DNA from: Rhodospirillaceae bacterium
Lineage (GTDB): Bacteria > Pseudomonadota > Alphaproteobacteria > UBA8366 > Aestuariispiraceae
Length of the DNA stretch: 64,000 nucleotides
Reading direction: 5' to 3'
Assembly: GCA_002709955.1 (NCBI GenBank)
Contig: PAQY01000018.1
Span: forward strand, 13,508 to 77,507
How positions within the stretch are numbered: position 1 is the first letter of the stretch; each line of letters opens with the position of its first letter. Of this stretch, positions 1-10,322 are shown piece after piece. The translations under genes were made by a program, and so were the position numbers. Below the pieces are notes generated by a model. The model worked only from the letters and a program-made list of their open reading frames with translations, had not been told where the DNA came from and searched no databases.

Positions 1-96
1 TCCAATCAATTTGGCGAGCTTTCGATCTGATCGCACAGAAAGCGCATCTTTAGCGTAATCCAAATAGCTGTCGATGGTTGGCAATGTCGATTTCAT
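1..96 (-). CDS. Phage repressor-like HTH protein, N-terminal 32 aa only (runs off window)
   Basis: Manual translation MKSTLPTIDSYLDYAKDALSVRSDRKLAKLIG; GGAGA RBS upstream; divergent from early genes; resembles Cro/CI-type HTH N-termini; absent from ORF track. Confidence 0.7.
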   Translation of the reverse strand, partial: MKSTLPTIDSYLDYAKDALSVRSDRKLAKLIG

Positions 97-120
97 GGCG
101 GTCTCCTTTGTTAAAAAAAC

Positions 121-139
121 TGTATCGCGTATCGAAACG
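121..139. promoter_or_regulatory. Putative operator O1 (imperfect palindrome)
   Basis: TGTATCG-CGTAT-CGAAACG; right arm 5/7 match to O2. Confidence 0.55.
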
Positions 140-166
140 CGCTTGCAATTGAAAACGAACCATGTA

Positions 167-185
167 TGTATCGTGTCTCGATACA
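167..185. promoter_or_regulatory. Putative operator O2 (perfect 7-5-7 palindrome)
   Basis: TGTATCG-TGTCT-CGATACA between divergent repressor and early genes. Confidence 0.65.
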
Positions 186-241
186 CCAAATACAGTGGTT
201 TCCACGATATGAGGTGTTTTGGCGTCGTTGGGGAAACAAGG

Positions 242-443
242 TTCTGTGTCGCGACAGAAAGAAGACGCTCCCCAGCGTCCGGGTTTTCGGTCATCCCAGC
301 CAGAAAAAACCGTCAAGTTACCCCTCTGAGTTCCTGGACAGTCTCACGGGGGGGATGGTGGCGGAAGCCATACGGCGGGGGAGTGAGGCACAAAACTTTC
401 TCCCCCGTCACCATACGCAAACTGTCCCCTGCGCGGAGCGCGC
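242..443 (+). other. Hairpin-dense non-coding segment (structured leader RNA or replication origin candidate)
   Basis: Stems 242-247/254-259, 264-269/274-279, 336-342/421-427, 355-360/409-414, 376-383/400-407; TGGC-GGAA-GCCA at 359-370. Confidence 0.45.
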
Positions 444-466
444 ATAACCGTTGGGGAGTAAAGAAA

Positions 467-853
467 ATGGCAATTGGTACGATTACACCTACTGAGAAAG
501 ACGGCGTTTTTCGGTTTCGGATCACAACGTTCCATCTCAATCTCTCGGGAATTCTTAAAGTCAATCCGGCCTATGTCGATGATGGGCGCATGAAAATGTC
601 CCATATCGGTCAAGCGCGCGGGTCGCATGGTGAAATTGTCGATGTGTTGGGCGCTGCTCGGTATCGCATTGAAAAGTCTGATGCGGAGTTTCGCGGGGAA
701 AACCTATTCAATCTTTGGTTCACTGATCCTGATTTTCCGACTTGGCGAATGGCTGCCTATCCCCGTCGCGATGATGCGGGCGTTATCTATTGGGATATTC
801 AGCGATCCCAGGACAAGCAGGAAGCAGGGCAGGCCGGGGGGGCGGAACAGTGA
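467..853 (+). CDS. DUF736-like protein, putative ssDNA-binding (128 aa)
   Basis: MAIGTIT start and LWFTDPDFP / YWDIQRS segments resemble DUF736; GGGGAG RBS at 453-458. Confidence 0.55.
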   Translation: MAIGTITPTEKDGVFRFRITTFHLNLSGILKVNPAYVDDGRMKMSHIGQARGSHGEIVDVLGAARYRIEKSDAEFRGENLFNLWFTDPDFPTWRMAAYPRRDDAGVIYWDIQRSQDKQEAGQAGGAEQ

Positions 854-1086
854 AAAACGATGCGGAAATTTTAAGGTTTCGCGTTCAGAAAGAGGGTGGA
901 GGGGTCAGGGTCTCGCCAGTCGGGGCCGATGGAGAATTTAATCCGACCAGCAACGACAACGCGCTTGCGGTTGCGGCTTGGGGCATCGGAGTTTTTCTGG
1001 ATGTCGGCCTTACGCCCGATGAAATCAAGGCAGTAGCCCAAGCAATGCAGCTCGACCAATTGGGCACAGACAATGCAACTGCCTAA
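850..1086 (+). CDS. Phage hypothetical protein (78 aa)
   Basis: GTG start overlapping upstream stop (GTGA). Confidence 0.6.
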   Translation: MKNDAEILRFRVQKEGGGVRVSPVGADGEFNPTSNDNALAVAAWGIGVFLDVGLTPDEIKAVAQAMQLDQLGTDNATA

Positions 1087-1471
1087 AGGACTGCTCACCG
1101 ACATTCCCTACGATCCTGTTGAATACGGGCGGCTGCTGTCCCGGTTCGGATCGTTTGAGGTTATCGACGTGCAGAAATTGGAAAAGATTGGGGAGGATCG
1201 TTTCGGCGATCCTCTCTATCGCTTGTGCCGATGGTACGAAATCCAATCCTCTTGCGGTGATCTGATCCTTGCCGGTGGATTTCCGACGCTGGGATTTGCC
1301 CAGACCGTCGCCAATTATTTCGCACAGTTGCGGGAAATGTATCTCACGCCATCGGCGCTAGAGTTCTGCGAAAGCTTCTGGAAAGAGCAAGAGGAAACCG
1401 GGGACTATTGGGGGCTGACCAAACGTGACGCGCCCGATTGGAACGATGCTTATTATGGGGTGCTGTCATGA
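1073..1471 (+). CDS. Phage hypothetical protein (132 aa)
   Basis: ORF overlapping both neighbours in the early operon. Confidence 0.65.
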   Translation: MQLPKGLLTDIPYDPVEYGRLLSRFGSFEVIDVQKLEKIGEDRFGDPLYRLCRWYEIQSSCGDLILAGGFPTLGFAQTVANYFAQLREMYLTPSALEFCESFWKEQEETGDYWGLTKRDAPDWNDAYYGVLS

Positions 1472-1776
1472 CAACGCCCAAGAGGGGGAAAACCTGCGGA
1501 ACCTGTTATTATTTTGATCCGCAATGCTGGTCTGGATTAGGCGATTGCCATAGAGCGCCGCCCCTCCCGTTTATGCAAATGCTGGATTATTTGACCAAGG
1601 CTTCACTAAAGACAATTGACCCTCAGGAAGCGGCTGCAATCAAAGGGGAAGAATGGGCCCTTTTTTGGCCTGAAGTCAATTTGCACCATGACGGATGCGG
1701 CGAGTACAAGCGGGCCGGTTTGTTCGATTATGGATGGAATTGGGCGCAAGGTTGGCGGTGGCGGTGGAAAAAATGA
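1468..1776 (+). CDS. Cys-motif (metal-binding) phage protein (102 aa)
   Basis: ATGA coupling; CGTC...GDCHRAPP...GCGEY motif. Confidence 0.65.
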   Translation: MTTPKRGKTCGTCYYFDPQCWSGLGDCHRAPPLPFMQMLDYLTKASLKTIDPQEAAAIKGEEWALFWPEVNLHHDGCGEYKRAGLFDYGWNWAQGWRWRWKK

Positions 1777-2963
1777 GCGCCGAAACCCTTGTCAATACGC
1801 AAGCAGAGTTTCCCCCCCCCTCCGAAGGCACAAGGGACCGCCGATATCGTCTCAGGGCGGCTGCGGCAAAGGTAGGATATGGCCGGGTGCGCCGATGCGG
1901 GCGCAAGCGCGTCTCTCTGACAGTCCAGATACGCAATCATGACGGCGTTTGCTCTGCCTCAGGCTTTGAGACGTGCGGGTCTATCTGGTCTTGTCCAGTG
2001 TGTGCCGCAAAAATCTCTGAGGTTCGGCGGCAAGAGGTCCGAAAAGCGATGCTGGGATGCTCTGAGGCGGGCGGGGCGGTCTACATGATGGCGTTTACCG
2101 CCCCCCATTACCGTGGGCAGGGCCTCAGGGGGCTTAAGGACCGAATGGGCCTTGCATGGCGCAAGATGCTATCAGGCGCGCCATGGGGGCGTCTCAGGGG
2201 CGATATGGGCCTTATTGGCTACATCAAGGGGCTAGAAGTCACTCACGGGATTAAAAACGGCTGGCATCCGCATTTTCATATCCTGTTTTTCCTGGAAAAG
2301 CCGCTGACAGAGCAGGAACGGGAAAAATTTGAATGGAAGCTGTTTAATCGATGGGATCAGATTGTCTGTGAGGCTGGGTCTGATCCGTGTAATTTCGCTG
2401 TTTTTAAATTGGAACAGGCGCACACGCCGGAAGCCGCTGGCGATTATGTCGCTAAATTCGGTTCTGATTATGAAATCACTCACTTGCATACCAAGGCGGC
2501 AAAGGGCGGCGGGCGATCACCTTGGGCGCTTCTGGACCTGTCGGCAAAGGGATATCAAGAAGCGGGTAAACGGTTTGGGGAATATTCGCGGGCGATGTTT
2601 GGCGCACGTCAATTGACGTGGAGCAAGGGCCTAAAGGATCTGTACCGCGTCTCTGATCCCTCGGATGAGGACGTAGCGGAAACCAATCACGGTGACGTGG
2701 TTATCACCCTTGACGGCAAGGAAGTGGATGAAGTCCAGCGGGCCGGATACCGCTGTTTTCTTGCCATGCTACGGGCTGCGGAAACTGGCGGGGCGGTGGC
2801 AGTGCGGGCTTTCCTGCGCGATTTCGGGCTTGGGCGACGGTCTGATGATCTTAGGGCTTTTCGGTCGCAATACTACGGAGAAACAGACAATGACGACAAA
2901 GGCGAATTCGCTGGTCGTGCGCCTGCATCCAAGCGGGACATGGCGGTACATGGGGTTCACTGA
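1773..2963 (+). CDS. rep: HUH rolling-circle replication initiator (Rep_1-like, 396 aa)
   Basis: CGSIWSCPVC, motif I MAFTAPH, motif II GWHPHFHIL, motif III DYVAK with catalytic Tyr; ATGA coupling. Confidence 0.92.
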   Translation: MSAETLVNTQAEFPPPSEGTRDRRYRLRAAAAKVGYGRVRRCGRKRVSLTVQIRNHDGVCSASGFETCGSIWSCPVCAAKISEVRRQEVRKAMLGCSEAGGAVYMMAFTAPHYRGQGLRGLKDRMGLAWRKMLSGAPWGRLRGDMGLIGYIKGLEVTHGIKNGWHPHFHILFFLEKPLTEQEREKFEWKLFNRWDQIVCEAGSDPCNFAVFKLEQAHTPEAAGDYVAKFGSDYEITHLHTKAAKGGGRSPWALLDLSAKGYQEAGKRFGEYSRAMFGARQLTWSKGLKDLYRVSDPSDEDVAETNHGDVVITLDGKEVDEVQRAGYRCFLAMLRAAETGGAVAVRAFLRDFGLGRRSDDLRAFRSQYYGETDNDDKGEFAGRAPASKRDMAVHGVH

Positions 2964-3087
2964 GCAAGGCGCTATTGCTTGGTATCAGGACGCGAAACAG
3001 GCTGAGGCGTATTTCGCTGATGATGCTCACAAACTCGCAAATCTGTACAGCAAGCGCGGCTGGGATATGCACGTAAGGACGGTGTGA
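2890..3087 (+). CDS. Small hypothetical protein overlapping the rep 3' end (65 aa)
   Basis: GGAG RBS at 2877-2880; stop 1 nt before the next ATG. Confidence 0.55.
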   Translation: MTTKANSLVVRLHPSGTWRYMGFTEQGAIAWYQDAKQAEAYFADDAHKLANLYSKRGWDMHVRTV

Positions 3088-3088
3088 T

Positions 3089-3442
3089 ATGGCTAAACAG
3101 GACGTGATCGGATATGCGCCGTGTCCCGATCCAAACTGCAAAAACATGGCGGAAATTCGGGTTCGCAGAACGAAAAGCGGGCCGGGGAATATTTATATCA
3201 TTCATGACTATTCCCCGCCTCAGCGCGGCTGTGGATCGAGCCAAAATTTGACCAATTGGGACCAGCATACCGCGCCTGATTGGCCGGGGTTTGTGCCACT
3301 GGCTAAGAAACCAGAGCCTAAGGCTTCAATTCCTAAGGAAACAAAGCCTCAGGAACCGGAATCTAATGCAGCCAATCCTAAGGAAACGAAACCGAAGGTG
3401 AGCCTTGCGCGGCGCATCTGGGACGGGGGCGATGATGACTGA
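3089..3442 (+). CDS. Zn-ribbon putative transcription regulator (PM2 P14-like position) with PKxxx repeat tail
   Basis: CPDPNC...H...GCG motif; located between rep and ATPase, as PM2 gene XIV. Confidence 0.6.
   Translation: MAKQDVIGYAPCPDPNCKNMAEIRVRRTKSGPGNIYIIHDYSPPQRGCGSSQNLTNWDQHTAPDWPGFVPLAKKPEPKASIPKETKPQEPESNAANPKETKPKVSLARRIWDGGDDD
3302..3398. repeat. 15-bp-period array of CCTNAGG-like heptamers
   Basis: GCTAAGA 3302, CCTAAGG 3317, CCTAAGG 3332, CCTCAGG 3347, TCTAATG 3362, CCTAAGG 3377, CCGAAGG 3392. Confidence 0.8.
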
Positions 3443-3950
3443 GGAAAAAGACCCTTACATCGGGGACCTGGACGATGTGACCTGGGATGCTGCCAAAGAT
3501 GATTTCAGCTATGGGCAGCAAGAAATCCCTAAAGAGGTTCGGGACGAATTCCCGGAAATCGGCGCGCAACAAGGCGGCATGGAACGGGAGGAATTCGACC
3601 GGATTGTCGGGACAGATCGATTTTCGGCTCACGTCGCCAAGCTGCTGAATTGGAACGCCAAAATTCAGGGCGTACCGGAGGCCCGCATAGATGCAAGCGA
3701 TCAAGGTTTTAATGCTGCTATGGAGGTCGTTTATCGCCGCCTCTTGGATGGGCCGGGGCGCTATTTGCTGCCTTACCTTACTAACCGCGATCTTATCGAT
3801 CTATGGATGGTTTCAACGTGGGCTGTCCCGTATGCGATCCGGTTTCGCAAGGCGATTGCGGCGCGGAAAAAGGCGGCGCGCGCACAGGCGATGGCACAAC
3901 ACAAGGCGAAAGAGCCTGAGCAAAAAGGGGCTGATGAAAATGTCAACTGA
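3432..3950 (+). CDS. Phage hypothetical protein preceding the ATPase (172 aa)
   Basis: Overlaps both neighbours; acidic N-terminus, hydrophobic segment and basic tail. Confidence 0.7.
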   Translation: MMTEEKDPYIGDLDDVTWDAAKDDFSYGQQEIPKEVRDEFPEIGAQQGGMEREEFDRIVGTDRFSAHVAKLLNWNAKIQGVPEARIDASDQGFNAAMEVVYRRLLDGPGRYLLPYLTNRDLIDLWMVSTWAVPYAIRFRKAIAARKKAARAQAMAQHKAKEPEQKGADENVN

Positions 3951-4587
3951 TGGCAAGCGGATTTTTATTGCAGGATCGGCGGGGTCCGGCAAATCAGTGT
4001 TAGCGCGGTCGCTGGTCGCGGATCGGCCAAGGGTTATAATCTTTGACCCAAAAAATGAAGTGCATTGGCAGGACGGCGCGGAACGCATTCACCACATGGC
4101 ACAGTTTAAGACCTTCCTGGGAGATATGCGCGATGGCGCTTTCCGGGTCTATTATCAGCCTGAAACAGGGCGCGAAATCGAGCGACTGTCGAGCCTGTCA
4201 ACCCTGCTGATGAAGTTCCAGGCGGGGCACAATGCAGGCAAGATTGAACGCCCGATCACATTGATTGTGGAGGAAATGGCGGCGGCTGCGCCTTTGTCCA
4301 TCCCGCCAAAACATACGGGCTTCCCACAACTGATCCGAATGGGCCGGTCCTATGGGATATCAGTGGTCGGGATTGCGCAACGTCCAGCCGAAGTGTCGCC
4401 AACATTCCGGGGTAATCTGAATGCGGCTTTTGCATTCCGGTTCTCATTCAAGAATGACCGTCAAGCCATCGCCTATGCGATGCAAGATGAAGCCGTTGAA
4501 CAGGCTGTCCAGGACTTGCCGGAATTTCATTATCTCGCCTTTGACGGTCGCAGTTGGTCAAAATGCGATCCGGTTCCGCTGACATAA
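3940..4587 (+). CDS. FtsK/HerA-family genome packaging ATPase (PM2 P9-like, 215 aa)
   Basis: Walker A GSAGSGKS, Walker B TLIVEE, Arg-finger and sensor GRSYGISVVGIAQRP. Confidence 0.92.
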   Translation: MSTDGKRIFIAGSAGSGKSVLARSLVADRPRVIIFDPKNEVHWQDGAERIHHMAQFKTFLGDMRDGAFRVYYQPETGREIERLSSLSTLLMKFQAGHNAGKIERPITLIVEEMAAAAPLSIPPKHTGFPQLIRMGRSYGISVVGIAQRPAEVSPTFRGNLNAAFAFRFSFKNDRQAIAYAMQDEAVEQAVQDLPEFHYLAFDGRSWSKCDPVPLT

Positions 4588-4597
4588 ACCGCCCGAT

Positions 4598-4621
4598 TTC
4601 CTAAGGCTTTGTTTCCTTAGG
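4598..4621. promoter_or_regulatory. CCTAAGG-N8-CCTTAGG palindromic site upstream of the capsid operon
   Basis: Reverse complement is 23/24 identical to 3332-3355. Confidence 0.6.
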
Positions 4622-4721
4622 GTCGATAGACGATTTAAGCAAAGTGCCCTTGTCCTGATCCCATACAGGCGGGGGCATTTTGCTGCCCGTCACGTTTCTA
4701 ATCTCAAACGTGGGTAGGGCG

Positions 4722-4868
4722 ATGAAATTCACTCTTAAAAATCTGGGCGTGATTGCCCTGGGCGTAGCTCTCGGCATGATTGGCCTGAATTACGTTACAA
4801 AATTGGTGCCGGGGGCCGAAGAGTTGGCCTCGGGTGAAAGTTCCTTCTGGGCACGGCTGTTCGGCTAA
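4722..4868 (+). CDS. Small membrane protein preceding MCP (PM2 P7-like position, 48 aa)
   Basis: Single hydrophobic helix LGVIALGVALGMIGLNYV. Confidence 0.7.
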   Translation: MKFTLKNLGVIALGVALGMIGLNYVTKLVPGAEELASGESSFWARLFG

Positions 4869-4881
4869 GGGGAGGCTTTCA

Positions 4882-5751
4882 ATGCCAAAATTTCTGAAAC
4901 GCATGCAGTCTTTCAGTAACGTCGCGCCGTCGTCCATCGCCGTCGCCACGTTGCCGGTCACGAAAAAGTATCACAAGGTCTTGCTGCGGCTGCGGCATGA
5001 TACCAGCGGTTCGGGCGGGGCGGCTGGAACGCTGATGACCCAAGCGAACATGCTGACGCACATTGCCGAAATCCGGTTGCGCGTCACATCGCTATCGTTT
5101 GGCACTCAAACGCTGTGGGAATTGTCGGGCGCTGATTTCATCAAGTGCATCAACAATTTCTACAATATCGACAGTGCGGCGGGCGTTCTGCCTTTGATCT
5201 TTGGTTGTCCGTATTGGAACAACCCGGCGATTGAAGACTATTTCAGCCTGGGCACGCTGGACCTGACCAATGTGGAAATCGAAGTCAAATTCGATAGCAC
5301 CGTTGTCGGGCCGGAATTGGTCGGGTTCGCCTATGAATACAGCGGGCCGAATGAGCCGCTGGGCCGGTTCCTCAAGTACCAGTACACGAACCTGTCAAAC
5401 ACAGCGACGGGCTGGATTGAAGAACCTGACTTGCCTGTTGTCGGTAACGGCATCGGCTTGAAGGCGCTGCACCTATCGACCAATGCAATCGACGAAGTTG
5501 AATTGCGGTCCAATGGTGAAGTGGTTCACGAAGACCTGGCCGAATTCCGGCCTGTCCTTCTGGACCTGAATGCTTTCCGCACCGATGGCCGGACGGAAGA
5601 CGCCAACTATACCCACCTTGACCTTGCCGGGAACAACGCGGCGGACGTGTTCAACATGTCCAATGTTCGGGATTTCCGGGCCAAGTTCAATCGGACGGGA
5701 ACCGGCGCTTTCCGTTGCATCACGGAAACCGTGATCGGCAACGCGGCGTAA
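4882..5751 (+). CDS. Double jelly-roll major capsid protein (PM2 P2-like, 289 aa)
   Basis: FSLGTLDLTNVEIEVKFD, DLPVVGNGIGLKALHL and VRDFRAKF match recalled PM2 P2 segments (FALGTVGLTTCEIKFD, DLPRPVGYRIAAIHI, IQDLRLKI); GGGAGG RBS. Confidence 0.9.
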   Translation: MPKFLKRMQSFSNVAPSSIAVATLPVTKKYHKVLLRLRHDTSGSGGAAGTLMTQANMLTHIAEIRLRVTSLSFGTQTLWELSGADFIKCINNFYNIDSAAGVLPLIFGCPYWNNPAIEDYFSLGTLDLTNVEIEVKFDSTVVGPELVGFAYEYSGPNEPLGRFLKYQYTNLSNTATGWIEEPDLPVVGNGIGLKALHLSTNAIDEVELRSNGEVVHEDLAEFRPVLLDLNAFRTDGRTEDANYTHLDLAGNNAADVFNMSNVRDFRAKFNRTGTGAFRCITETVIGNAA

Positions 5752-5766
5752 CTGCGCATGATTCGA

Positions 5767-5794
5767 AGGGTGGCGGGCTACGGCCTGCCACCCT
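5767..5794 (+). other. 12-bp stem with C(UACG)G tetraloop after MCP, no U-tract
   Basis: AGGGTGGCGGGC-TACG-GCCTGCCACCCT. Confidence 0.7.
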
Positions 5795-5809
5795 ATGAGG
5801 AGAAAGATT

Positions 5810-6181
5810 ATGCCTGCTTACAATCCAGGTGGCATTGAAGGGACTTCAACGTCTCAGTCTGCTTTGAACACGGGCACGGGCGGCATTGGTAGCCTGTTTT
5901 CAGACGGGGCCGATTGGCTTTCCAATCAGGTTGACGACATCCTGAACAGTGCCGGGAAAATCTGGACCACGATTTCAACGTACAAACTCTCTGAGGCGCA
6001 ATTGCAGGCGCAACGCGACAAGCTGCGGATGAACCAGGAAGCGTATCAGCCTGTCTCGGCGTCTTCGGCTATCCCGAATATGGGGTCGTTCTTTGGCGGT
6101 CAAAGCCAGATCGGTACGTACCTGATGATCGGCGGGGCAATCTTGCTGGCAATTTGGGGCATCCCAAAGCTTCTGAAATAG
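5810..6181 (+). CDS. Virion membrane protein (PM2 P3-like, 123 aa)
   Basis: First gene after MCP; amphipathic N-half and C-terminal TM helix; GAGGAG RBS. Confidence 0.7.
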   Translation: MPAYNPGGIEGTSTSQSALNTGTGGIGSLFSDGADWLSNQVDDILNSAGKIWTTISTYKLSEAQLQAQRDKLRMNQEAYQPVSASSAIPNMGSFFGGQSQIGTYLMIGGAILLAIWGIPKLLK

Positions 6182-6190
6182 GGGGCGGGC

Positions 6191-6442
6191 ATGGCGGCTC
6201 AAGCTGGCATTAACGTCGATGTACGGGACGCCCTTAAGGGCGGTCCTGCCTATTCCGGGGCTGATGGCTATCAGGGGTCTTACCTGGGGCAAAATTACCA
6301 GGGCGGCTTTGGTGGCTACTACGCGCCGTTTTCCCCTGGGGGATCGGGCGCGTTTGCCAGTGCATCGGGGGAAAGTTCGATCTGGAAATGGTTGATTTTT
6401 GGCGGTGTGGCTTTGTTCGCCTATCGCGTTTGGAAGGGGTGA
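6191..6442 (+). CDS. Gly-rich virion membrane protein (PM2 P8-like, tentative)
   Basis: Gly/Tyr-rich body and C-terminal TM ending WKG. Confidence 0.6.
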   Translation: MAAQAGINVDVRDALKGGPAYSGADGYQGSYLGQNYQGGFGGYYAPFSPGGSGAFASASGESSIWKWLIFGGVALFAYRVWKG

Positions 6443-6445
6443 TCC

Positions 6446-6868
6446 ATGCAACACGATATCCGTTTTTTCCCTGCTGAGTGGTCGCCACAAGTCCAGGCCG
6501 TCATGAATGCCGCAAGCGGCCTGAATGCGGCTTACACGGTCGAAGACTTGCGCCGTGAAGTGTCGCGCGGGGCGTCAAAGCTTATGCAGGTTGTCCAGGT
6601 CATGCAGGACGGTTCGCCGATGCTGTTGGGCTATCTGTGCTTCTGGAAAGAGCCGCAAGGCCAGGGCCAGGAATTGGTGATCCATGCCGGGGCCGCGCTG
6701 ACCGATGAGCGAACGACCTTTGCCAAGGTTGCGCCGCATATCAAACGGCTTGCACTGGAAAACGGGTGCCAGTCGATCCGGGCGCATACGGCATCGTCAA
6801 AGCGGTTGGCGATGTTCAAGGCGAATGGCTATCAGATGGTTGAATTTGTTGTCCGGCAATGGGTGTAG
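6446..6868 (+). CDS. GNAT-fold acyltransferase-like protein
   Basis: LALENGCQSIRAHT...MFKANGY resembles the GNAT C-terminal motif. Confidence 0.6.
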   Translation: MQHDIRFFPAEWSPQVQAVMNAASGLNAAYTVEDLRREVSRGASKLMQVVQVMQDGSPMLLGYLCFWKEPQGQGQELVIHAGAALTDERTTFAKVAPHIKRLALENGCQSIRAHTASSKRLAMFKANGYQMVEFVVRQWV

Positions 6869-6871
6869 GTC

Positions 6872-7273
6872 ATGGGCGGCAGTTCATCCAGTTCATCCAG
6901 CCAGACCCAGACGACGGACAACAGTCAGAAAACGTATATCGATGATACGCGGGCGGCTGTTTATGACCAGGGCGTAGCGATCACGGGGACAACGGGCGCG
7001 ATCACCTATTCCGATTTGTCGCCTGAGGTCGCAGCCGAATTGCGTAAGGCGGGGGAGGCGGGTTTTGACCTGTCGGCGGATGTTCTGAAACTCGGTTTCG
7101 ATTTCGCCAATCAGGCGAATAAGTCCGTCCAGGAATTGGCGGGCACGGTGTCGGCGGTCGCGAAAGAGGCGACGGAGGAAGACGCCAAGCAATTCCTGAC
7201 CGATTTTGTCAAGTGGGGGCTGTTAGCCTCGGTGTCGGTTGCGGCGCTGTTTTTCTGGTCTAAGAAAGGCTGA
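6872..7273 (+). CDS. Virion membrane protein with MGGSSSS N-terminus (PM2 P10-like, tentative)
   Basis: Ser/Thr-rich N-terminus, helical middle, C-terminal TM ending KKG. Confidence 0.65.
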   Translation: MGGSSSSSSSQTQTTDNSQKTYIDDTRAAVYDQGVAITGTTGAITYSDLSPEVAAELRKAGEAGFDLSADVLKLGFDFANQANKSVQELAGTVSAVAKEATEEDAKQFLTDFVKWGLLASVSVAALFFWSKKG

Positions 7274-7277
7274 TCGA

Positions 7278-7970
7278 ATGCCAAACACGGTGATCTATGA
7301 GGTTCGGGAATATGTCCTGGACGCGAACGGCGAAACGAAAGAATACATCCCGGCAACGCGCTTCCGGGTACTGAGCGCGACGGGGCCTCTTGCCATAGCG
7401 TTTGGTCCTACCGATGGTTTCCAGCGCATTGAAAGCGGCCTTGGTATCAGCACGATTGAGCCATTTAAGATGGTTCGCATTAAGGATATTTCCGGGGCGC
7501 AAAACACGATCCTTGTTGCCTACGCGGGGTCTGATGTAGCCGATAGCCGTTTAACCATCACGGGCGGTCAATTGGGTGTGCTTGATCCGGTGGGCGGCGA
7601 AAGCTTTTCCGACATCGTGACTGCGCTTCAGGCGGTAACGGCGGCAATGCGTGAGGATCAGCAATTACGTGCTCCGCTGACCACGTTTGACGGCGCAAGC
7701 TATTACCAGGCGGTCAATACCACGACAACAGTTATTTCCGCCGCCGCAAATACAGGCGGTTTTATAATCCGATGGGCCGGGGTGCAGGTTCAAAGCGGCA
7801 ATGGTGTGGCGGCGGTGCGGCTTGATGACGATGAGGTCTTGTACGCGCTGTCAAACAACACGGACATGATTGCTAATTGCGGGAATATCTATGTTCCCGC
7901 TGGGGTGAAGGTCGATCTTTATTCGGCGGCTGCGGCCAATAAGGCGTGGCTGTGGGGGGAGGCGCTGTAA
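7278..7970 (+). CDS. Penton/spike receptor-binding protein (PM2 P1-like, 230 aa)
   Basis: N-terminal FRVLSATGPLAIAF...ESGLGI...FKMVRI resembles the recalled PM2 P1 jelly-roll domain; beta-rich C-terminal domain. Confidence 0.75.
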   Translation: MPNTVIYEVREYVLDANGETKEYIPATRFRVLSATGPLAIAFGPTDGFQRIESGLGISTIEPFKMVRIKDISGAQNTILVAYAGSDVADSRLTITGGQLGVLDPVGGESFSDIVTALQAVTAAMREDQQLRAPLTTFDGASYYQAVNTTTTVISAAANTGGFIIRWAGVQVQSGNGVAAVRLDDDEVLYALSNNTDMIANCGNIYVPAGVKVDLYSAAAANKAWLWGEAL

Positions 7971-8164
7971 TGAGCAATCCAACGGCAAATAATTCCTTTG
8001 AGGGAATGTCCGATGCTGAAAAAGCTTCGCTGGCCGTCGATCCGGTAACGAGCCTTAAAATCGTCGCAAGCGCAAAGCGTGGCGGTGTCGAATGGTTGTC
8101 TTTTGAAGACGGAACGGAGGCGGTACGCGACCAGGACGGCAACGCGGCTGTATGGCCTGAATAA
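7970..8164 (+). CDS. Small acidic protein coupled to spike (64 aa)
   Basis: TAATG overlaps at both ends. Confidence 0.6.
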   Translation: MSNPTANNSFEGMSDAEKASLAVDPVTSLKIVASAKRGGVEWLSFEDGTEAVRDQDGNAAVWPE

Positions 8165-8628
8165 TGCGCGCGATCCTGCTGGTCGCGCTGTCATTGATCC
8201 TATGGGGGTACAATAAAATGAAGTTGAACGAGGCTCAGTTGACAATGGCGCGCACCATGTATGGCGAAGCGCGAGGCGAGGGCGCGACGGGCATGCAGGC
8301 GGTCGGCAACGTCATCATGAACCGCGCACTGTTGGGCGGATGGTGGGGCAATAGCATCGTGTCCGTTGCTCTGAAACCGTGGCAATTTTCGGCCTGGAAC
8401 CAGAATGATCCGAACCGCGATGTTATCGCCAATCTTATGCCGGGCGACAATCAGACCTTTGATCTTGCTTATGAGATTGCGGGCAAGCTGATCGACGGGG
8501 ACTTGCCCGATATAACGGGCGGCGCAACGCACTACTACGCCGATACGATTTCGGAACCGGGATGGGCGCGCGGGGCCAATCAGACGGCCTATATCGGCCA
8601 TCATAAATTCTTTAATGAGGTCGCGTAA
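8164..8628 (+). CDS. SleB/Hydrolase_2 cell-wall hydrolase with N-terminal hydrophobic segment
   Basis: TMYGEARGE catalytic motif, VGNVIMNR, QFSAWN, GGATHYY, IGHHKF. Confidence 0.9.
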   Translation: MRAILLVALSLILWGYNKMKLNEAQLTMARTMYGEARGEGATGMQAVGNVIMNRALLGGWWGNSIVSVALKPWQFSAWNQNDPNRDVIANLMPGDNQTFDLAYEIAGKLIDGDLPDITGGATHYYADTISEPGWARGANQTAYIGHHKFFNEVA

Positions 8629-8807
8629 TGCAGTTCGTTCCTATCGTCATCTGGTCGCTGGCCGGGTCCATCGCGACACTTTGGGCAACCCGTCAAGAGG
8701 GGGAAGCCGAAACGGTAACAGAGCGGATCACAACCAATCTAGGCGCGGTCTTCATTGCAGTGGCCGGGGCTGTTGCGACTGCTTGGGTTTGGAAAAAGGT
8801 GCGGTAA
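8628..8807 (+). CDS. Two-TM small membrane protein (59 aa)
   Basis: Manual translation MQFVPIVIWSLAGSIATLW...LGAVFIAVAGAVATAWVWKKVR; TAATG coupling on both sides; below ORF-track cutoff. Confidence 0.7.
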   Translation: MQFVPIVIWSLAGSIATLWATRQEGEAETVTERITTNLGAVFIAVAGAVATAWVWKKVR

Positions 8808-8956
8808 TGCAAGCGCTGTTTGACATCATTAGGGAGGCGCTAGGCGTCGGATCGGATGCGGCGATCATCGGGTTCGCGTTGATCCTGTGGCGGATCGAGC
8901 GGCGCTTGTACCGGGTTGAATTGCACCTGTGGCCGAAAGAGGGAGGGCGGTTATGA
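8807..8956 (+). CDS. Small membrane protein (49 aa)
   Basis: TAATG coupling; one TM followed by a basic stretch. Confidence 0.65.
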   Translation: MQALFDIIREALGVGSDAAIIGFALILWRIERRLYRVELHLWPKEGGRL

Positions 8957-9372
8957 TCTCGGAAGTCGTCAAGGGCATTGCGGGGCCGCTGTTCGGGTTG
9001 GTCGATAGTCTTTTCACGTCCGATGAAGAACGGGCCGCTGCAAAATTGAAATTGTTGGAAATGGAACAGCGCGGCGAATTGGAAACCATGCGGGTCCAGA
9101 TGAGCGCCATTCTGGCAGAAGCGAACAGCAAAGACCCCTGGACAAGTCGCGCGCGTCCGGCCTTTTTGTATGTGATTTACATCATCATCTTGGCAGCTTT
9201 GCCTATGGGCATTCTGAGCGCGTTTCGGCCTGATGTTGCGACGGAAATCACCCTTGGCGTAAACGCATGGCTATCTGCTATCCCGGATGCGCTCTGGACA
9301 CTGTTTGGGGCCGGTTATCTCGGATATGCCGGGGCGCGCACGGTCGATAAGCTGAAAGGCGGTCAAAAATGA
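8953..9372 (+). CDS. 3TM holin family protein (139 aa)
   Basis: FTSDEERAAAKL, WTSRARPAFLY and GYAGARTVDK motifs of the GTA/phage 3TM holin family. Confidence 0.85.
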   Translation: MISEVVKGIAGPLFGLVDSLFTSDEERAAAKLKLLEMEQRGELETMRVQMSAILAEANSKDPWTSRARPAFLYVIYIIILAALPMGILSAFRPDVATEITLGVNAWLSAIPDALWTLFGAGYLGYAGARTVDKLKGGQK

Positions 9373-9557
9373 AGCTGCGCAAAATGCTGGTAAGGGCGGC
9401 AATCCTGGGCGGTGCATCGGCCTTGGCGGCGTGGGTGTCCAGGGCGGTTGTGCCAGGGGAGGCTGACCCGTTTGCACCGACTGGGGAAGCCAAAACGCAA
9501 GTGATCCGCGCGGGATTGGCCGGCGCGGTTTTTGGCCTGGTTTCAGGCATCATTTAG
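9369..9557 (+). CDS. Small two-helix membrane protein (62 aa)
   Basis: ATGA coupling to holin; hydrophobic ends. Confidence 0.65.
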   Translation: MKLRKMLVRAAILGGASALAAWVSRAVVPGEADPFAPTGEAKTQVIRAGLAGAVFGLVSGII

Positions 9558-9569
9558 GGAGGGCCGGTC

Positions 9570-9680
9570 ATGGCACGTAAATCAGTATCGAAAAAGGCGG
9601 CAACCAAGGGCAAGGGACGCCTGAAAAAGGGCTATCGCTACGCGAAAGGCGGGCGGATCGTGAAGGCGAAAAAGCGGTGA
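9570..9680 (+). CDS. Highly basic 36-aa peptide (putative DNA-condensing protein)
   Basis: MARKSVSKKAATKGKGRLKKGYRYAKGGRIVKAKKR; GGGAGG RBS; 16 K/R and no D/E. Confidence 0.7.
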   Translation: MARKSVSKKAATKGKGRLKKGYRYAKGGRIVKAKKR

Positions 9681-9682
9681 CG

Positions 9683-10090
9683 CTATCGGCGGCTGTTTGG
9701 CGTCTTGTTCGGGGCTGGCTTTAGGCGATCCGCCAGGGTGGATTTCGGAATTCTGAAATCATTTTCAATTGTTCTCAGGGACGCGCCTTTGCGGCGTTTG
9801 ATTTCTGCACCTTGGAGGCGGGCCGAAAGGTCCGCCTTTTCTCTGCGCTGGATCTCTAACTGCACCGGGGTCACGGGCAGGCAAAATTGCGCGGCGGCGC
9901 TGGAAATAGCTGCATCGGACGCAACGTCATTTTTTATCATCATGCGATCGGCAAGGTCTGCGGCGCGACGGATTACAGAGAGGCGCGACGATTGCGCCTC
10001 TCTTTCGGAAATATCCGTTGCCTCTCTGATAAGTAATTTTTCAATCTCGCCAAAGATACCGGCAAGTCTATAGAGCGTGTCCGAATTCAT
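9683..10090 (-). CDS. Protein with C-terminal helix-turn-helix
   Basis: GASLRTIENDFRIPKSTLADRL HTH pattern; GGGGA RBS. Confidence 0.7.
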   Translation of the reverse strand: MNSDTLYRLAGIFGEIEKLLIREATDISEREAQSSRLSVIRRAADLADRMMIKNDVASDAAISSAAAQFCLPVTPVQLEIQRREKADLSARLQGAEIKRRKGASLRTIENDFRIPKSTLADRLKPAPNKTPNSRR

Positions 10091-10175
10091 CGCTTTCCCC
10101 GACTATTGTTATGCCATATTCAAGCGGGGGAATGCGTGAATGACAAGGGAAACCGCCTTACGAGCCATTTTCTTA

Positions 10176-10203
10176 ATTTTCCATAATATACATTATCACG
10201 ATT
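10176..10203 (-). other. dif: dif-like XerC/XerD recombination site (prophage right junction)
   Basis: Minus strand AATCGTGATAA-TGTATA-TTATGGAAAAT versus E. coli dif GGTGCGCATAA-TGTATA-TTATGTTAAAT: spacer identical, XerD arm 9/11. Confidence 0.85.
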
Positions 10204-10322
10204 GAAATAGAGAGAAAGACGAGGATAAAGGGGCCTGTTCCCTGGCGCACTCTTGCCATCCGACCAGAAACCAATTACGCCCGATCAACGCCTTAAATCT
10301 ACCGTCATCAGAAACGAATTTC

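What the first reader, a model, noticed from the sequence alone, without database searches (positions are those of the whole stretch)
3302..4621. 15-bp-period CCTNAGG array inside a coding region, mirrored upstream of the capsid operon
Seen: seven heptamers at exact 15-bp spacing (3302-3398) within the Zn-ribbon gene, encoding its PKxxx tail. The intergenic 4598-4621 carries CCTAAGG-N8-CCTTAGG, and its reverse complement matches 3332-3355 at 23/24 nt. A protein repeat alone cannot explain the non-coding inverted copy. The array sits just upstream of the ATPase unit and the copy just upstream of the capsid unit. Inference: dual-coding DNA sites for a phage factor (late activator or repressor), or a packaging or looping signal. 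PM2 late transcription is known to need phage-encoded activators.
Basis: partly seen in the sequence, partly recalled or inferred. Interest (0 to 1): 0.72.

Follow-up and report, generated by a model that had tools for sequence, protein, structure and literature searches.

The report
Paired palindromic control sites in prophage
A small PM2-like prophage carries the same short palindromic DNA motif just ahead of its capsid genes and, written into the protein code, inside the gene for its probable late-gene activator; related prophages repeat this pairing with their own motif versions, so it is probably a regulatory site rather than a side effect of a protein repeat.

Summary
Heptamers sit every 15 bp from 3302 to 3398, but only four of the seven fit CCTNAGG. 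The intergenic dyad at 4598-4621 matches 3332-3355 in reverse complement at 23/24.

Window 1 to about 10,200 is a corticovirus (PM2-like) prophage with PM2 gene order. The Zn-ribbon gene is the homologue of PM2 P14, a late-transcription activator. The intergenic region corresponds by position to PM2's late-promoter region.

A palindrome with CCTA...TAGG-type arms opens this region in about 13 lineages, usually just before a terminator-like hairpin. Where an extra gene separates the ATPase from the capsid genes, the palindrome stays with the capsid genes.

In five lineages, each genome's own version of the element recurs inside its own P14-like linker. That match beats every other stretch of the locus. 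Synonymous codons there favour T-AAG-G (9/12 against 17/115 elsewhere).

Best reading (about 0.45): these are double-stranded DNA sites for a phage late regulator, dual-coded in a disordered linker. No binding factor is shown.

The strict 15-bp period comes from a pentapeptide repeat and tandem duplication, and relatives do not share it. RNA-level elements, neutral copying and replication or packaging roles remain open.

The parts
2890..3087 (+). Small ORF (65 aa) overlapping the 3' end of the Rep gene, in the position of PM2 gene XIII (P13)
   Evidence: The translation is conserved in L002 in the same position. It is not similar to PM2 P13 and its function is unknown.
3089..3442 (+). P14-like gene: N-terminal Zn ribbon, PK/PE-rich linker, C-terminal RRIWDGGDDD motif
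   Evidence: It is syntenic with PM2 gene XIV. The clade profile against a profile containing PM2 P14 gives hhalign probability 95%, E 3e-8. The family profile hits the TFIIS-type ribbon of RPB9, E 1.5e-4. The AF2 model is of low confidence, with three N-terminal strands and no structure after about residue 70.
3302..3398 (+). Array of seven heptamers at 15-bp spacing inside the linker-coding region (exact CCTAAGG at 3317, 3332, 3377; CCTCAGG at 3347)
   Evidence: (D1). The relatives L001, X6 and X7 read CCTAAGG at 3392 as well.
3332..3355 (+). Coding copy A of the intergenic element (23/24 in reverse complement, spacer included)
   Evidence: (I1).
3377..3398 (+). Coding copy B (18/22 to the intergenic element), 37 nt upstream of the orf h-like start
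   Evidence: I9. It is positionally equivalent to the L002 copy at 4782-4808.
3435..3950 (+). orf h-like gene (171 aa), first gene downstream of the array
   Evidence: Synteny with PM2 orf h. It is 40-62% identical within clade A.
3934..4587 (+). P9-like packaging ATPase
   Evidence: Pfam AAA_10/DUF87 and PHROG terminase-like hits; homologues.
4598..4621 (+). Intergenic dyad TTCCTAAGG-CTTTGTTT-CCTTAGG, 11 nt after the ATPase stop
   Evidence: It is identical in L001 and L011. Homologous palindromes occupy the same position in 13 lineages.
4638..4684 (+). Long GC-rich hairpin flanked by an A-tract and a U-tract (terminator-like)
   Evidence: RNA fold, z = -5.6 for the whole intergenic region. 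There are compensatory changes against L002. Clearer T-runs occur in 9 other lineages. The simple terminator scan did not call it, because it has only 4 T.
4691..4712 (+). CACGTTT-N8-AAACGTG hairpin directly upstream of the ribosome site of the P7-like gene
   Evidence: It is kept in L002 with a U-G wobble on the + strand.
4722..4868 (+). P7-like small membrane protein, first gene of the structural (late) block
   Evidence: Synteny with PM2 gene VII.
4882..5751 (+). Major capsid protein (PM2 P2 type)
   Evidence: Pfam P2_N and P2_C above their cut-offs.

Best explanation
Window 1 to about 10,200 is a PM2-like (corticovirus) prophage. The dyad at 4598-4621 belongs to a family of palindromic cis-elements. 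These share a [C/T]TAAGG-type core and CCTA...TAGG outer arms, and they mark the upstream edge of the leader of the structural (late) operon.

In the window's clade the same element is also written, as synonymous codon choices, into the disordered linker of the P14-like late-activator gene. There it lies 16-130 nt upstream of the orf h-ATPase pair.

I infer that these are recognition sites on double-stranded DNA for one phage-encoded regulator. That regulator would coordinate the two units needed late: orf h-ATPase and the capsid operon. The most likely binder is the P14-like Zn-ribbon protein itself, possibly with a small partner.

Shown: homology, synteny, positional conservation, within-genome matching of the two sites, and the codon bias. 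Inferred: binding, the identity of the binder, and the sign of regulation. The site would be upstream of the core promoter only if the late promoter overlaps the terminator-like hairpin.
For: 1. Identity of the element. Pfam finds the P2 capsid domains, Rep_1 and a cell-wall hydrolase. The gene order equals PM2's XII-XIII-XIV-h-IX-VII-II. [quoted passage not shown]

2. P14 homology. hhalign gives probability 95%, E 3e-8. The family profile matches a TFIIS/RPB9-type ribbon.

3. Positional conservation. A palindrome starts the intergenic region in the window, L002, L003, L004, L005, L006, L012, L014, L025-L029 and PM2. In L028 an inserted gene separates the ATPase from the late genes, and the palindrome stays with the late genes.

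4. Within-genome matching. The intergenic element aligns to its own P14-like gene better than to any other same-size stretch of the locus:
- window: score 21 against a maximum of 9 (0 of 220 stretches)
- L002: 12 against 10 (0 of 318)
- L003: 19 against 9 (0 of 309)
- L012: 13 against 11 (0 of 65)
- L025: 14 against 10 (0 of 192)
The sequences differ between lineages.

5. Codon test. The context x-Lys-G is written T-AAG-G in 9 of 12 cases in P14-like genes, against 17 of 115 in other genes of the same elements (Fisher p = 2.6e-5). None of the 7 PK dipeptides outside the array is CCTAAG.

6. Double-stranded DNA symmetry. Several elements are perfect palindromes through their centre: L003 at 16 bp, L012 at 18 bp, L025 at 20 bp with 9 of 10 pairs, and PM2. 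An RNA loop would not select for that.

7. Copy orientation. The two copies share sequence in either orientation: inverted in the window, direct in L002 and L003.

8. No sigma-70 consensus promoter is found in 2800-5000, as expected for an activator-dependent unit.

9. The motif is absent from the early regulatory region.
Against: - There is no binding, transcript or start-site data. No RNA runs hold the region.
- The P14 ribbon is of the TFIIS/RPB9 type, which is known for binding RNA polymerase rather than DNA.
- The distance between the conserved arms ranges from 0 to 13 nt or more between lineages. That is awkward for a rigid dimer.
- Clade B (L006, L014, L026-L029) and PM2 show no significant copy in the P14-like gene.
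- A terminator-like hairpin lies between the dyad and the late genes in about 10 of 13 lineages. In L005 and L006 it leaves almost no room for a promoter after it.
- Internal tandem duplication makes the codon counts partly non-independent.
- The window itself has lost one site (CCGAAGG at 3392) that its close relatives keep.
- TAAGG also resembles a ribosome-binding site.
Confidence: 0.45

Rival explanations
1. RNA-level element. The palindromes act as hairpins in the rightward early transcript, one inside the P14 message and one just before the terminator. They would serve as processing or stability signals, or as loading sites for an antitermination factor that lets transcription read through into the late genes.
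For: - Both copies lie on the same strand of one operon.
- The intergenic copy sits directly upstream of a terminator-like hairpin in about 10 of 13 lineages. In L005 and L006 there is almost no room for a promoter after it.
- The whole intergenic region folds far better than shuffles, z = -5.6.
- The neighbouring hairpins show compensatory changes and + strand U-G changes.
- The P14 ribbon is of a type that contacts RNA polymerase.
Against: - Several elements are perfect palindromes through the centre, which RNA loops do not require.
- The window's coding copy has an A-C clash on the + strand, and the L002 intergenic copy has an A-A clash.
- The non-palindromic flanks and spacers are shared as the same sequence, in either orientation, rather than as complements.
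- Mismatches in the dyads show no bias towards G-U.
Confidence: 0.2
2. No function. A low-complexity PK linker expanded by tandem duplication, and palindrome-prone sequence was copied between the linker and the intergenic region by template switching or gene conversion.
For: - The 15/45-nt tandem duplication (D1).
- The identical 8-nt spacer in the window suggests recent copying.
- The spacer is flipped relative to L002, as happens between inverted arms.
- The linker tolerates almost any sequence (alignments).
- Clade B lacks coding copies.
- The overall CCTWAGG count is at chance level.
Against: - The pairing recurs in five lineages with different sequences.
- The intergenic palindrome is fixed in position across about 13 lineages and follows the late genes in L028.
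- Codon choice is biased in four of the five P14-like genes tested (L002 scored 0 of 2), p = 2.6e-5.
- The intergenic region is more conserved than the flanking genes between the window and L001.
Confidence: 0.12
3. DNA-structure signal for replication, packaging or genome anchoring. The palindromes would extrude as cruciforms or hairpins in the supercoiled or single-stranded genome. They could act as a lagging-strand origin or as a site where the genome is captured for assembly next to the ATPase gene.
For: - The element encodes a rolling-circle Rep_1 initiator.
- The palindromes are long, perfect and sometimes AT-rich, for example 27 bp of TA repeats in L027.
- The variable arm spacing fits a stem-loop better than a rigid protein dimer.
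- The dyad abuts or overlaps the ATPase stop codon in several lineages.
Against: - The mapped Rep cleavage site of PM2 lies inside gene XII and is unlike these motifs.
- L028 appears to carry a different, HTH-type replication module yet keeps the palindrome, and there it sits beside the late genes and not beside the ATPase.
- This model gives no reason for a second copy in the P14 linker.
Confidence: 0.1
4. Recombination sites. The two copies flank orf h-ATPase and allow inversion or excision of that 1.2-kb segment. In the window, inversion would end P14 at PKETKP-stop.
For: - In the window the repeats are inverted, and the reverse complement of the intergenic copy reads in frame P K E T K P stop.
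Against: - No recombinase was seen among the ORFs of the element.
- The repeats are direct in L002 and L003.
- Contigs from eight public runs show no inverted or deleted form, although contigs hide rare variants.
- The minus-strand ORF 4601-4777 is broken by a 1-nt indel in L001 and X7.
Confidence: 0.03

Closest known systems
Late transcription control of bacteriophage PM2 (late promoter between genes IX and VII, activated by P13 and P14)
   Same: The gene order is the same. There is a homologous P14-type Zn-ribbon protein and an intergenic region in the same place. PM2 also has a near-palindrome, CTTTAACGTTTAAG, at the end of gene IX and another, AAACCGTTAAACGGT, in gene XIV.
   Different: I found no described cis-element for P13/P14 in the papers held here, and the primary PM2 transcription paper could not be read. 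In PM2 the two palindromes share only a 7-mer, which is not significant. The window has no P13-like coiled-coil gene, only an unrelated small ORF in that position.
Ogr/Delta late activators of P2-like phages (Zn-finger protein binding a dyad upstream of each late promoter)
   Same: It works alike on paper: a small Zn-binding phage protein and repeated dyad sites ahead of late units that lack a consensus promoter.
   Different: There is no sequence relationship. Pfam Ogr_Delta matched 1 of 16 members at E 0.75. Here one set of sites lies inside the activator's own coding sequence.
Lambda-type antitermination (nut/boxB with N; qut with Q ahead of a terminator)
   Same: The two copies per genome match each other while differing between lineages. 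One lies just upstream of a terminator that separates early from late genes.
   Different: The palindromes are symmetric at DNA level and not conserved as + strand hairpins. Pfam Antiterm matched one member at E 0.085 only.
Operators embedded in coding sequence (dual-coding regulatory sites)
   Same: The DNA motif is imposed on codons of a tolerant protein segment, and a synonymous-site bias is detectable.
   Different: Here the sites form an array in a disordered linker of the presumed regulator gene itself, and they change together with a site at another promoter.

Membership tests
Corticoviridae-like (PM2-like) prophage | Double jelly-roll major capsid protein of the PM2 P2 type | tested here: met
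   Pfam P2_N (35.2 bits) and P2_C (43.2 bits), both above the cut-off of 25.
Corticoviridae-like (PM2-like) prophage | Core block of ATPase, small membrane protein and capsid protein, with an intergenic region after the ATPase | tested here: met
   3934-4587, 4722-4868 and 4882-5751. The order matches PM2 and the description in PMC1950889.
Corticoviridae-like (PM2-like) prophage | Genome of about 10 kb with a rolling-circle initiator | tested here: met
   Rep_1 scores 46.5 bits against a cut-off of 33.2. Phage genes span about 10.2 kb. Public runs hold the region on contigs of 10,618 and 11,222 nt.
PM2 P14 family (late transcription factor) | N-terminal Zn ribbon homologous to PM2 P14 | tested here: met
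   Profile-profile probability 95%, E 3e-8 over the ribbon. The family profile hits the RPB9 C-terminal ribbon at E 1.5e-4. The window's own ligands read C12, C17, (H39), C48, so the fourth ligand is uncertain.
PM2 P14 family (late transcription factor) | Gene lies between the replication gene and orf h-ATPase; protein has a disordered linker and a short acidic/aromatic C-terminus | tested here: met
PM2 P14 family (late transcription factor) | Activates the late promoter | not testable with these tools
   This needs reporter or in vitro transcription assays.
Activator or operator site of a late promoter | Conserved position relative to the regulated operon | tested here: met
   Thirteen lineages have it, and it follows the late genes in L028.
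Activator or operator site of a late promoter | Fixed distance to a mapped transcription start, and bound by a regulator | not testable with these tools
   No RNA runs hold the region and no consensus promoter is found.
Intrinsic terminator (hairpin 4638-4684) | GC-rich stem followed by a T-run | tested here: inconclusive
   The scan, which needs 5 T in 8 bases, did not call it. The fold shows a 19-bp stem followed by UUUU. Relatives have 6-8 T.
Host repetitive extragenic palindromes or miniature mobile elements | Many copies spread through the host genome | tested here: not met
   There is no CCTWAGG site in the 54 kb of host DNA in the window.
Ogr/Delta family | Sequence match to the Ogr_Delta Zn finger | tested here: not met
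   One of 16 members matched, at E 0.75.

The most novel reading that the evidence does not exclude
The late genes of these viruses are switched on by read-through of the terminator-like hairpin that lies between the palindrome and the first late gene. The palindromes would be loading sites for the TFIIS-type P14 factor. The copies inside the P14 gene would load the factor, or feed back on it, earlier on the same unit. This would be a Q-like antitermination switch in membrane-containing tailless phages, with its sites dual-coded in the regulator's own gene.
Probability: 0.15. Interest if true: 0.8.

Novelty: new variant of a known kind. Interest (0 to 1): 0.55.

Why it matters
Corticoviruses and their prophages are common in marine bacteria. 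Their early-to-late switch is known only from PM2 genetics, and I found no defined DNA target for it. This finding gives a concrete candidate target that recurs across lineages and can be tested. It also shows regulatory sites being carried in the codons of a disordered linker and changing together with a distant partner site. If confirmed, late promoters could be predicted in uncultured members, and the role of the TFIIS-like P14 protein (on DNA, or on RNA polymerase at a terminator) could be tested directly.

Tried and rejected
- Minus-strand gene 4601-4777 ending in PKETKP: rejected. A 1-nt indel in L001 and indels in X7 break the frame.
- Host repeat family: rejected. No copies occur in the 54 kb of host DNA.
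- Operator of the 135-aa minus-strand HTH protein (9683-10090): unlikely. The motif is absent from the early regulatory region in the window and in L003.
- Rolling-circle nick site: rejected. The PM2 cleavage site is elsewhere and unlike these motifs, and there is no CTTGATA in the element.
- Exact-pattern scans of viral contigs for CCCTTAGCTAAGGG and TTCCTAAGG-N8-CCTTAGG gave 25 and 5 hits. None encodes corticoviral proteins, so these are chance hits.
- Searches of viral contigs with the ATPase and orf h profiles found no close relatives.
- RNA-seq: no runs hold the region.
- Inversion or deletion between the two copies: no such junction appears in contigs of eight runs. Contigs cannot exclude rare forms.
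- Matching dyad type to a binder by protein similarity: ATPase, capsid, orf h and P14 identities simply follow phylogeny, so the test is uninformative.
- AF2 single-sequence model of the P14-like protein: confidence was too low (pLDDT 53.5) to search folds.
- The primary PM2 transcription paper (PMC155381) is not held. My recollection that the PM2 late start lies about 50 nt after gene IX could therefore not be checked and is not used as evidence.
Full report
**1. The observation**

The sequence is as described. Heptamers lie at 3302, 3317, 3332, 3347, 3362, 3377 and 3392, exactly 15 bp apart. Three are CCTAAGG and one is CCTCAGG. The other three are degenerate: GCTAAGA, TCTAATG and CCGAAGG.

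The heptamers encode Pro-Lys or Pro-Gln at every fifth residue in the tail of ORF 3089-3442. The intergenic stretch 4600-4621 reads CCTAAGG-CTTTGTTT-CCTTAGG.

The pair 3332-3355 / 4598-4621 is the longest inverted repeat found in the first 11 kb, at 24 nt and 96%. The 24-mer with up to three mismatches occurs twice, against none in 100 shuffles. A second coding copy, 3377-3398, matches at 82%.

The number of CCTWAGG sites is not above chance, at 5 against 3.45 expected. What stands out is that all five sites lie in these two short spots. The array is a degenerate 15/45-nt tandem duplication (family D1). The strict period therefore comes from a pentapeptide repeat.

**2. What surrounds it**

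Window 1 to about 10,200 is a corticovirus-like prophage. It encodes:
- a Rep_1 initiator (1695-2963)
- a packaging-type ATPase (3934-4587)
- a PM2 P2-type capsid protein (4882-5751)
- a cell-wall hydrolase (8164-8628)

The order matches the PM2 record, which runs XII, XIII, XIV, orf h, IX, intergenic region, VII, II.

[quoted passage not shown] They also state that P13 and P14, encoded in the rightward early operon, activate the late operon.

The Zn-ribbon ORF occupies the place of gene XIV and has the same build as P14: a ribbon, a long featureless linker and a short acidic/aromatic end. A profile of the window's clade matches a profile containing PM2 P14 with probability 95%, E 3e-8. The family profile matches the TFIIS-type ribbon of RPB9 at E 1.5e-4.

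The finding therefore concerns the P14 homologue and the counterpart of the late-promoter region.

**3. Relatives**

- A near-identical prophage sits at the same chromosomal site in Hwanghaeella sp. LZ110. It is locus L001, about 93% identical.
- ATPase homologues led to more distant elements: L002, L003, L004, L005, L012 and L025-L029, among others.
- By ATPase and orf h identity, the window, L002, L003, L005 and L025 form clade A.
- L006, L014 and L026-L029 form clade B. L012 stands apart.

**4. The intergenic element is conserved in place but not in sequence**

Directly after, or overlapping, the ATPase stop codon, each lineage has a palindrome:

| Lineage | Element |
|---|---|
| window | TTTCCTAAGG-N8-CCTTAGGG |
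| L002 | TTTCCTAAGAAACGGCGTCTCTAAGG |
| L003 | CCCTTAGCTAAGGG |
| L004 | CCCTTAGCTAAGG |
| L025 | CTAACGTTAACGTTAAGG |
| L026 | CCCTAAGGGTTAGG |
| L027 | TTTTCCTATATATATAGATTATATATATAGG |
| L028 | TTTTCCTACCTAACGTTAACGTTAAACGTAAGGG |
| L029 | TTTTCCTATGTAACGTAACATAACGTTACCTAG |
| L006 | CCCCTATAAGAA-N13-TTCTATAGGG |
| L012 | CCTACGTAACGTAACG |

The outer arms (CCTA...TAGG, often preceded by a run of T) recur across lineages. The inside varies.

In L028 an extra minus-strand gene lies between the ATPase and the late genes. There the palindrome is found next to the late genes and not next to the ATPase. The element therefore belongs to the late block.

In about 10 of 13 lineages the palindrome is followed by a GC-rich hairpin with a U-run, and then within 17-60 nt by the P7-like gene. 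In the window the whole intergenic region folds into three hairpins with z = -5.6. The middle hairpin shows compensatory changes against L002.

Between the window and L001 the intergenic region has one substitution and one indel in 134 nt. The adjacent P7-like gene is much more diverged.

**5. The coding copy recurs, each time in the lineage's own version**

- L003 has AAACCCTTAGCTAAGGGTG both in its P14-like linker (4620-4638) and after its ATPase (5797-5815), identical over 19 nt.
- L002 has CCTAAGAAAC three times in 14 kb: twice in the linker and once in the intergenic element. The similarity extends over about 27 nt.
- L012 has an 18-bp perfect palindrome, CTACGTTACGTAACGTAG, in its linker. 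It has a related site 27 nt before the ATPase start and CCTACGTAACGTAACG at the ATPase stop.
- L025 has GATCCTTAACGTTAACGATC in the linker and CTAACGTTAACGTTAAGG in the intergenic region. Of its seven CGTTAAGG copies in 8.6 kb, four lie within the full P14-like ORF.
- L005 shares two 8-9-mers between its linker and its intergenic element. This is weak evidence.

I tested this formally. The local alignment of the intergenic element to its own P14-like gene exceeded every other same-size stretch of the locus in the window, L002, L003, L012 and L025. It did not in L005, clade B or PM2. The pairing is therefore a property of clade A plus L012.

**6. Synonymous-site test**

In the P14-like genes of clade A, the context any-residue, Lys, codon-starting-with-G is written T-AAG-G in 9 of 12 cases. 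In the other genes of the same elements the figure is 17 of 115 (Fisher p = 2.6e-5).

In the window, CCT makes up 29% of Pro codons and AAG 46% of Lys codons. None of the seven PK dipeptides outside the array is CCTAAG. Internal duplication weakens the independence of these counts, but four of the five genes tested show the bias (L002 scored 0 of 2).

Close relatives (L001, X6, X7) carry CCTAAGG at 3392, where the window has CCGAAGG.

**7. DNA or RNA?**

Several points favour recognition of double-stranded DNA:
- Several elements are perfect palindromes through their centre (L003, L004, L012, L025, PM2). A hairpin loop would not require this.
- The two copies share non-palindromic spacers and flanks as the same sequence. 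They are inverted in the window and direct in L002 and L003.
- The window's intergenic spacer is flipped relative to L002.
- The window's coding copy has an A-C clash on the + strand.

Against a simple rigid dimer, the arm spacing varies widely between lineages. A binder with a small DNA-reading domain on a long flexible linker, as P14 has, would tolerate that. This point is inference only.

**8. Where the promoter is**

No sigma-70 consensus promoter exists in 2800-5000, and no RNA data are available. In L005 and L006 the terminator-like hairpin ends only 17-25 nt before the first late gene.

The late promoter must therefore overlap the hairpin, or late transcription must read through it. I cannot decide between the two. 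The second option is the most novel reading left open.

**9. Rejected alternatives**

- The minus-strand ORF 4601-4777 is not conserved.
- The motif is not a host repeat.
- It is absent from the early control region beside the 135-aa HTH gene.
- It is unlike the PM2 Rep cleavage site.
- No inversion or deletion junction is seen in contigs of eight runs.

**10. Verdict**

The core inference, that the DNA sites are dual-coded in the tail of the Zn-ribbon gene and mirrored ahead of the capsid operon, gains real comparative support. The binder, the sign of regulation and the mechanism are still inferred.

I found no description of these elements in the papers held here. I rate it a new variant of a known kind: phage late-gene control sites, here embedded in the regulator's own coding sequence and changing together with the promoter-side site.

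Noticed in passing
window 3319-3355 (public runs X6, X7, X11, X12): All four runs hold a separate, unrelated contig that matches this 37-nt stretch with 5 differences. Its flanks read ...TAAGGAAGGGTCGTCTAAAGGGTCGTTTCT and ATATCCCCTAAGGAAACGCCCTCTATAGGG. It is another array of CCTAAGGAAAC-like and CTATAGGG-like motifs of unknown origin.
   Followed up: no
window 4638-4684 and 4691-4712: There are two further conserved hairpins in the intergenic region. The first is a 19-bp GC stem with an A-tract before it and a U-tract after it, so it could terminate in both directions. The second is CACGTTT-N8-AAACGTG, directly before the ribosome site of the P7-like gene. Both show compensatory or wobble changes against L002.
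   Followed up: partly
window 2890-3087: A 65-aa ORF overlaps the end of the Rep gene in another frame. Its protein sequence is conserved in L002. It sits where PM2 has P13 but does not resemble it.
   Followed up: partly
window 1-10300: No integrase or other recombinase was seen among the prophage ORFs. A bioRxiv paper on a PM2-like prophage proposes integration through the host Xer system. The ends of this prophage were not mapped.
   Followed up: no
window 2900-5000 (runs X1-X3): The region lies on contigs of 10,618 nt (X1, X2) and 11,222 nt (X3). That is about the size of the whole phage, so the element may also exist excised or may break assemblies at its ends.
   Followed up: no
L024 (PM2) 1239-1513 and 5221-5398: CTAAAG/CTTTAG hexamers occur 16 times in PM2. 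They cluster in both regulatory regions: four in the early divergent promoter region and five around the late intergenic region.
   Followed up: partly
L028 4304-4966: A 220-aa minus-strand gene of unknown function is inserted between the ATPase and the late genes in this relative only.
   Followed up: no
L026 1825-1860 and 4600-4615; L027 3365-3425: Clade B relatives carry extra copies of their own motif in other places. L026 has them at the start of the replication gene and in the 3' end of the ATPase gene. L027 has them in the 3' end of the ATPase gene.
   Followed up: partly
window 3317-3398, 4600-4621, 4865: The shared core TAAGG(A/G) resembles a ribosome-binding sequence. The true ribosome site of the capsid gene (TAAGGGGAGG at 4865) contains it. 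I found no start codon at a suitable distance from the array or the dyad.
   Followed up: partly
L025 3117-3476; L002 about 4470-4834: The gene calls in the source data truncate the P14-like genes. Read from an upstream start, both have the Zn-ribbon cysteines.
   Followed up: yes
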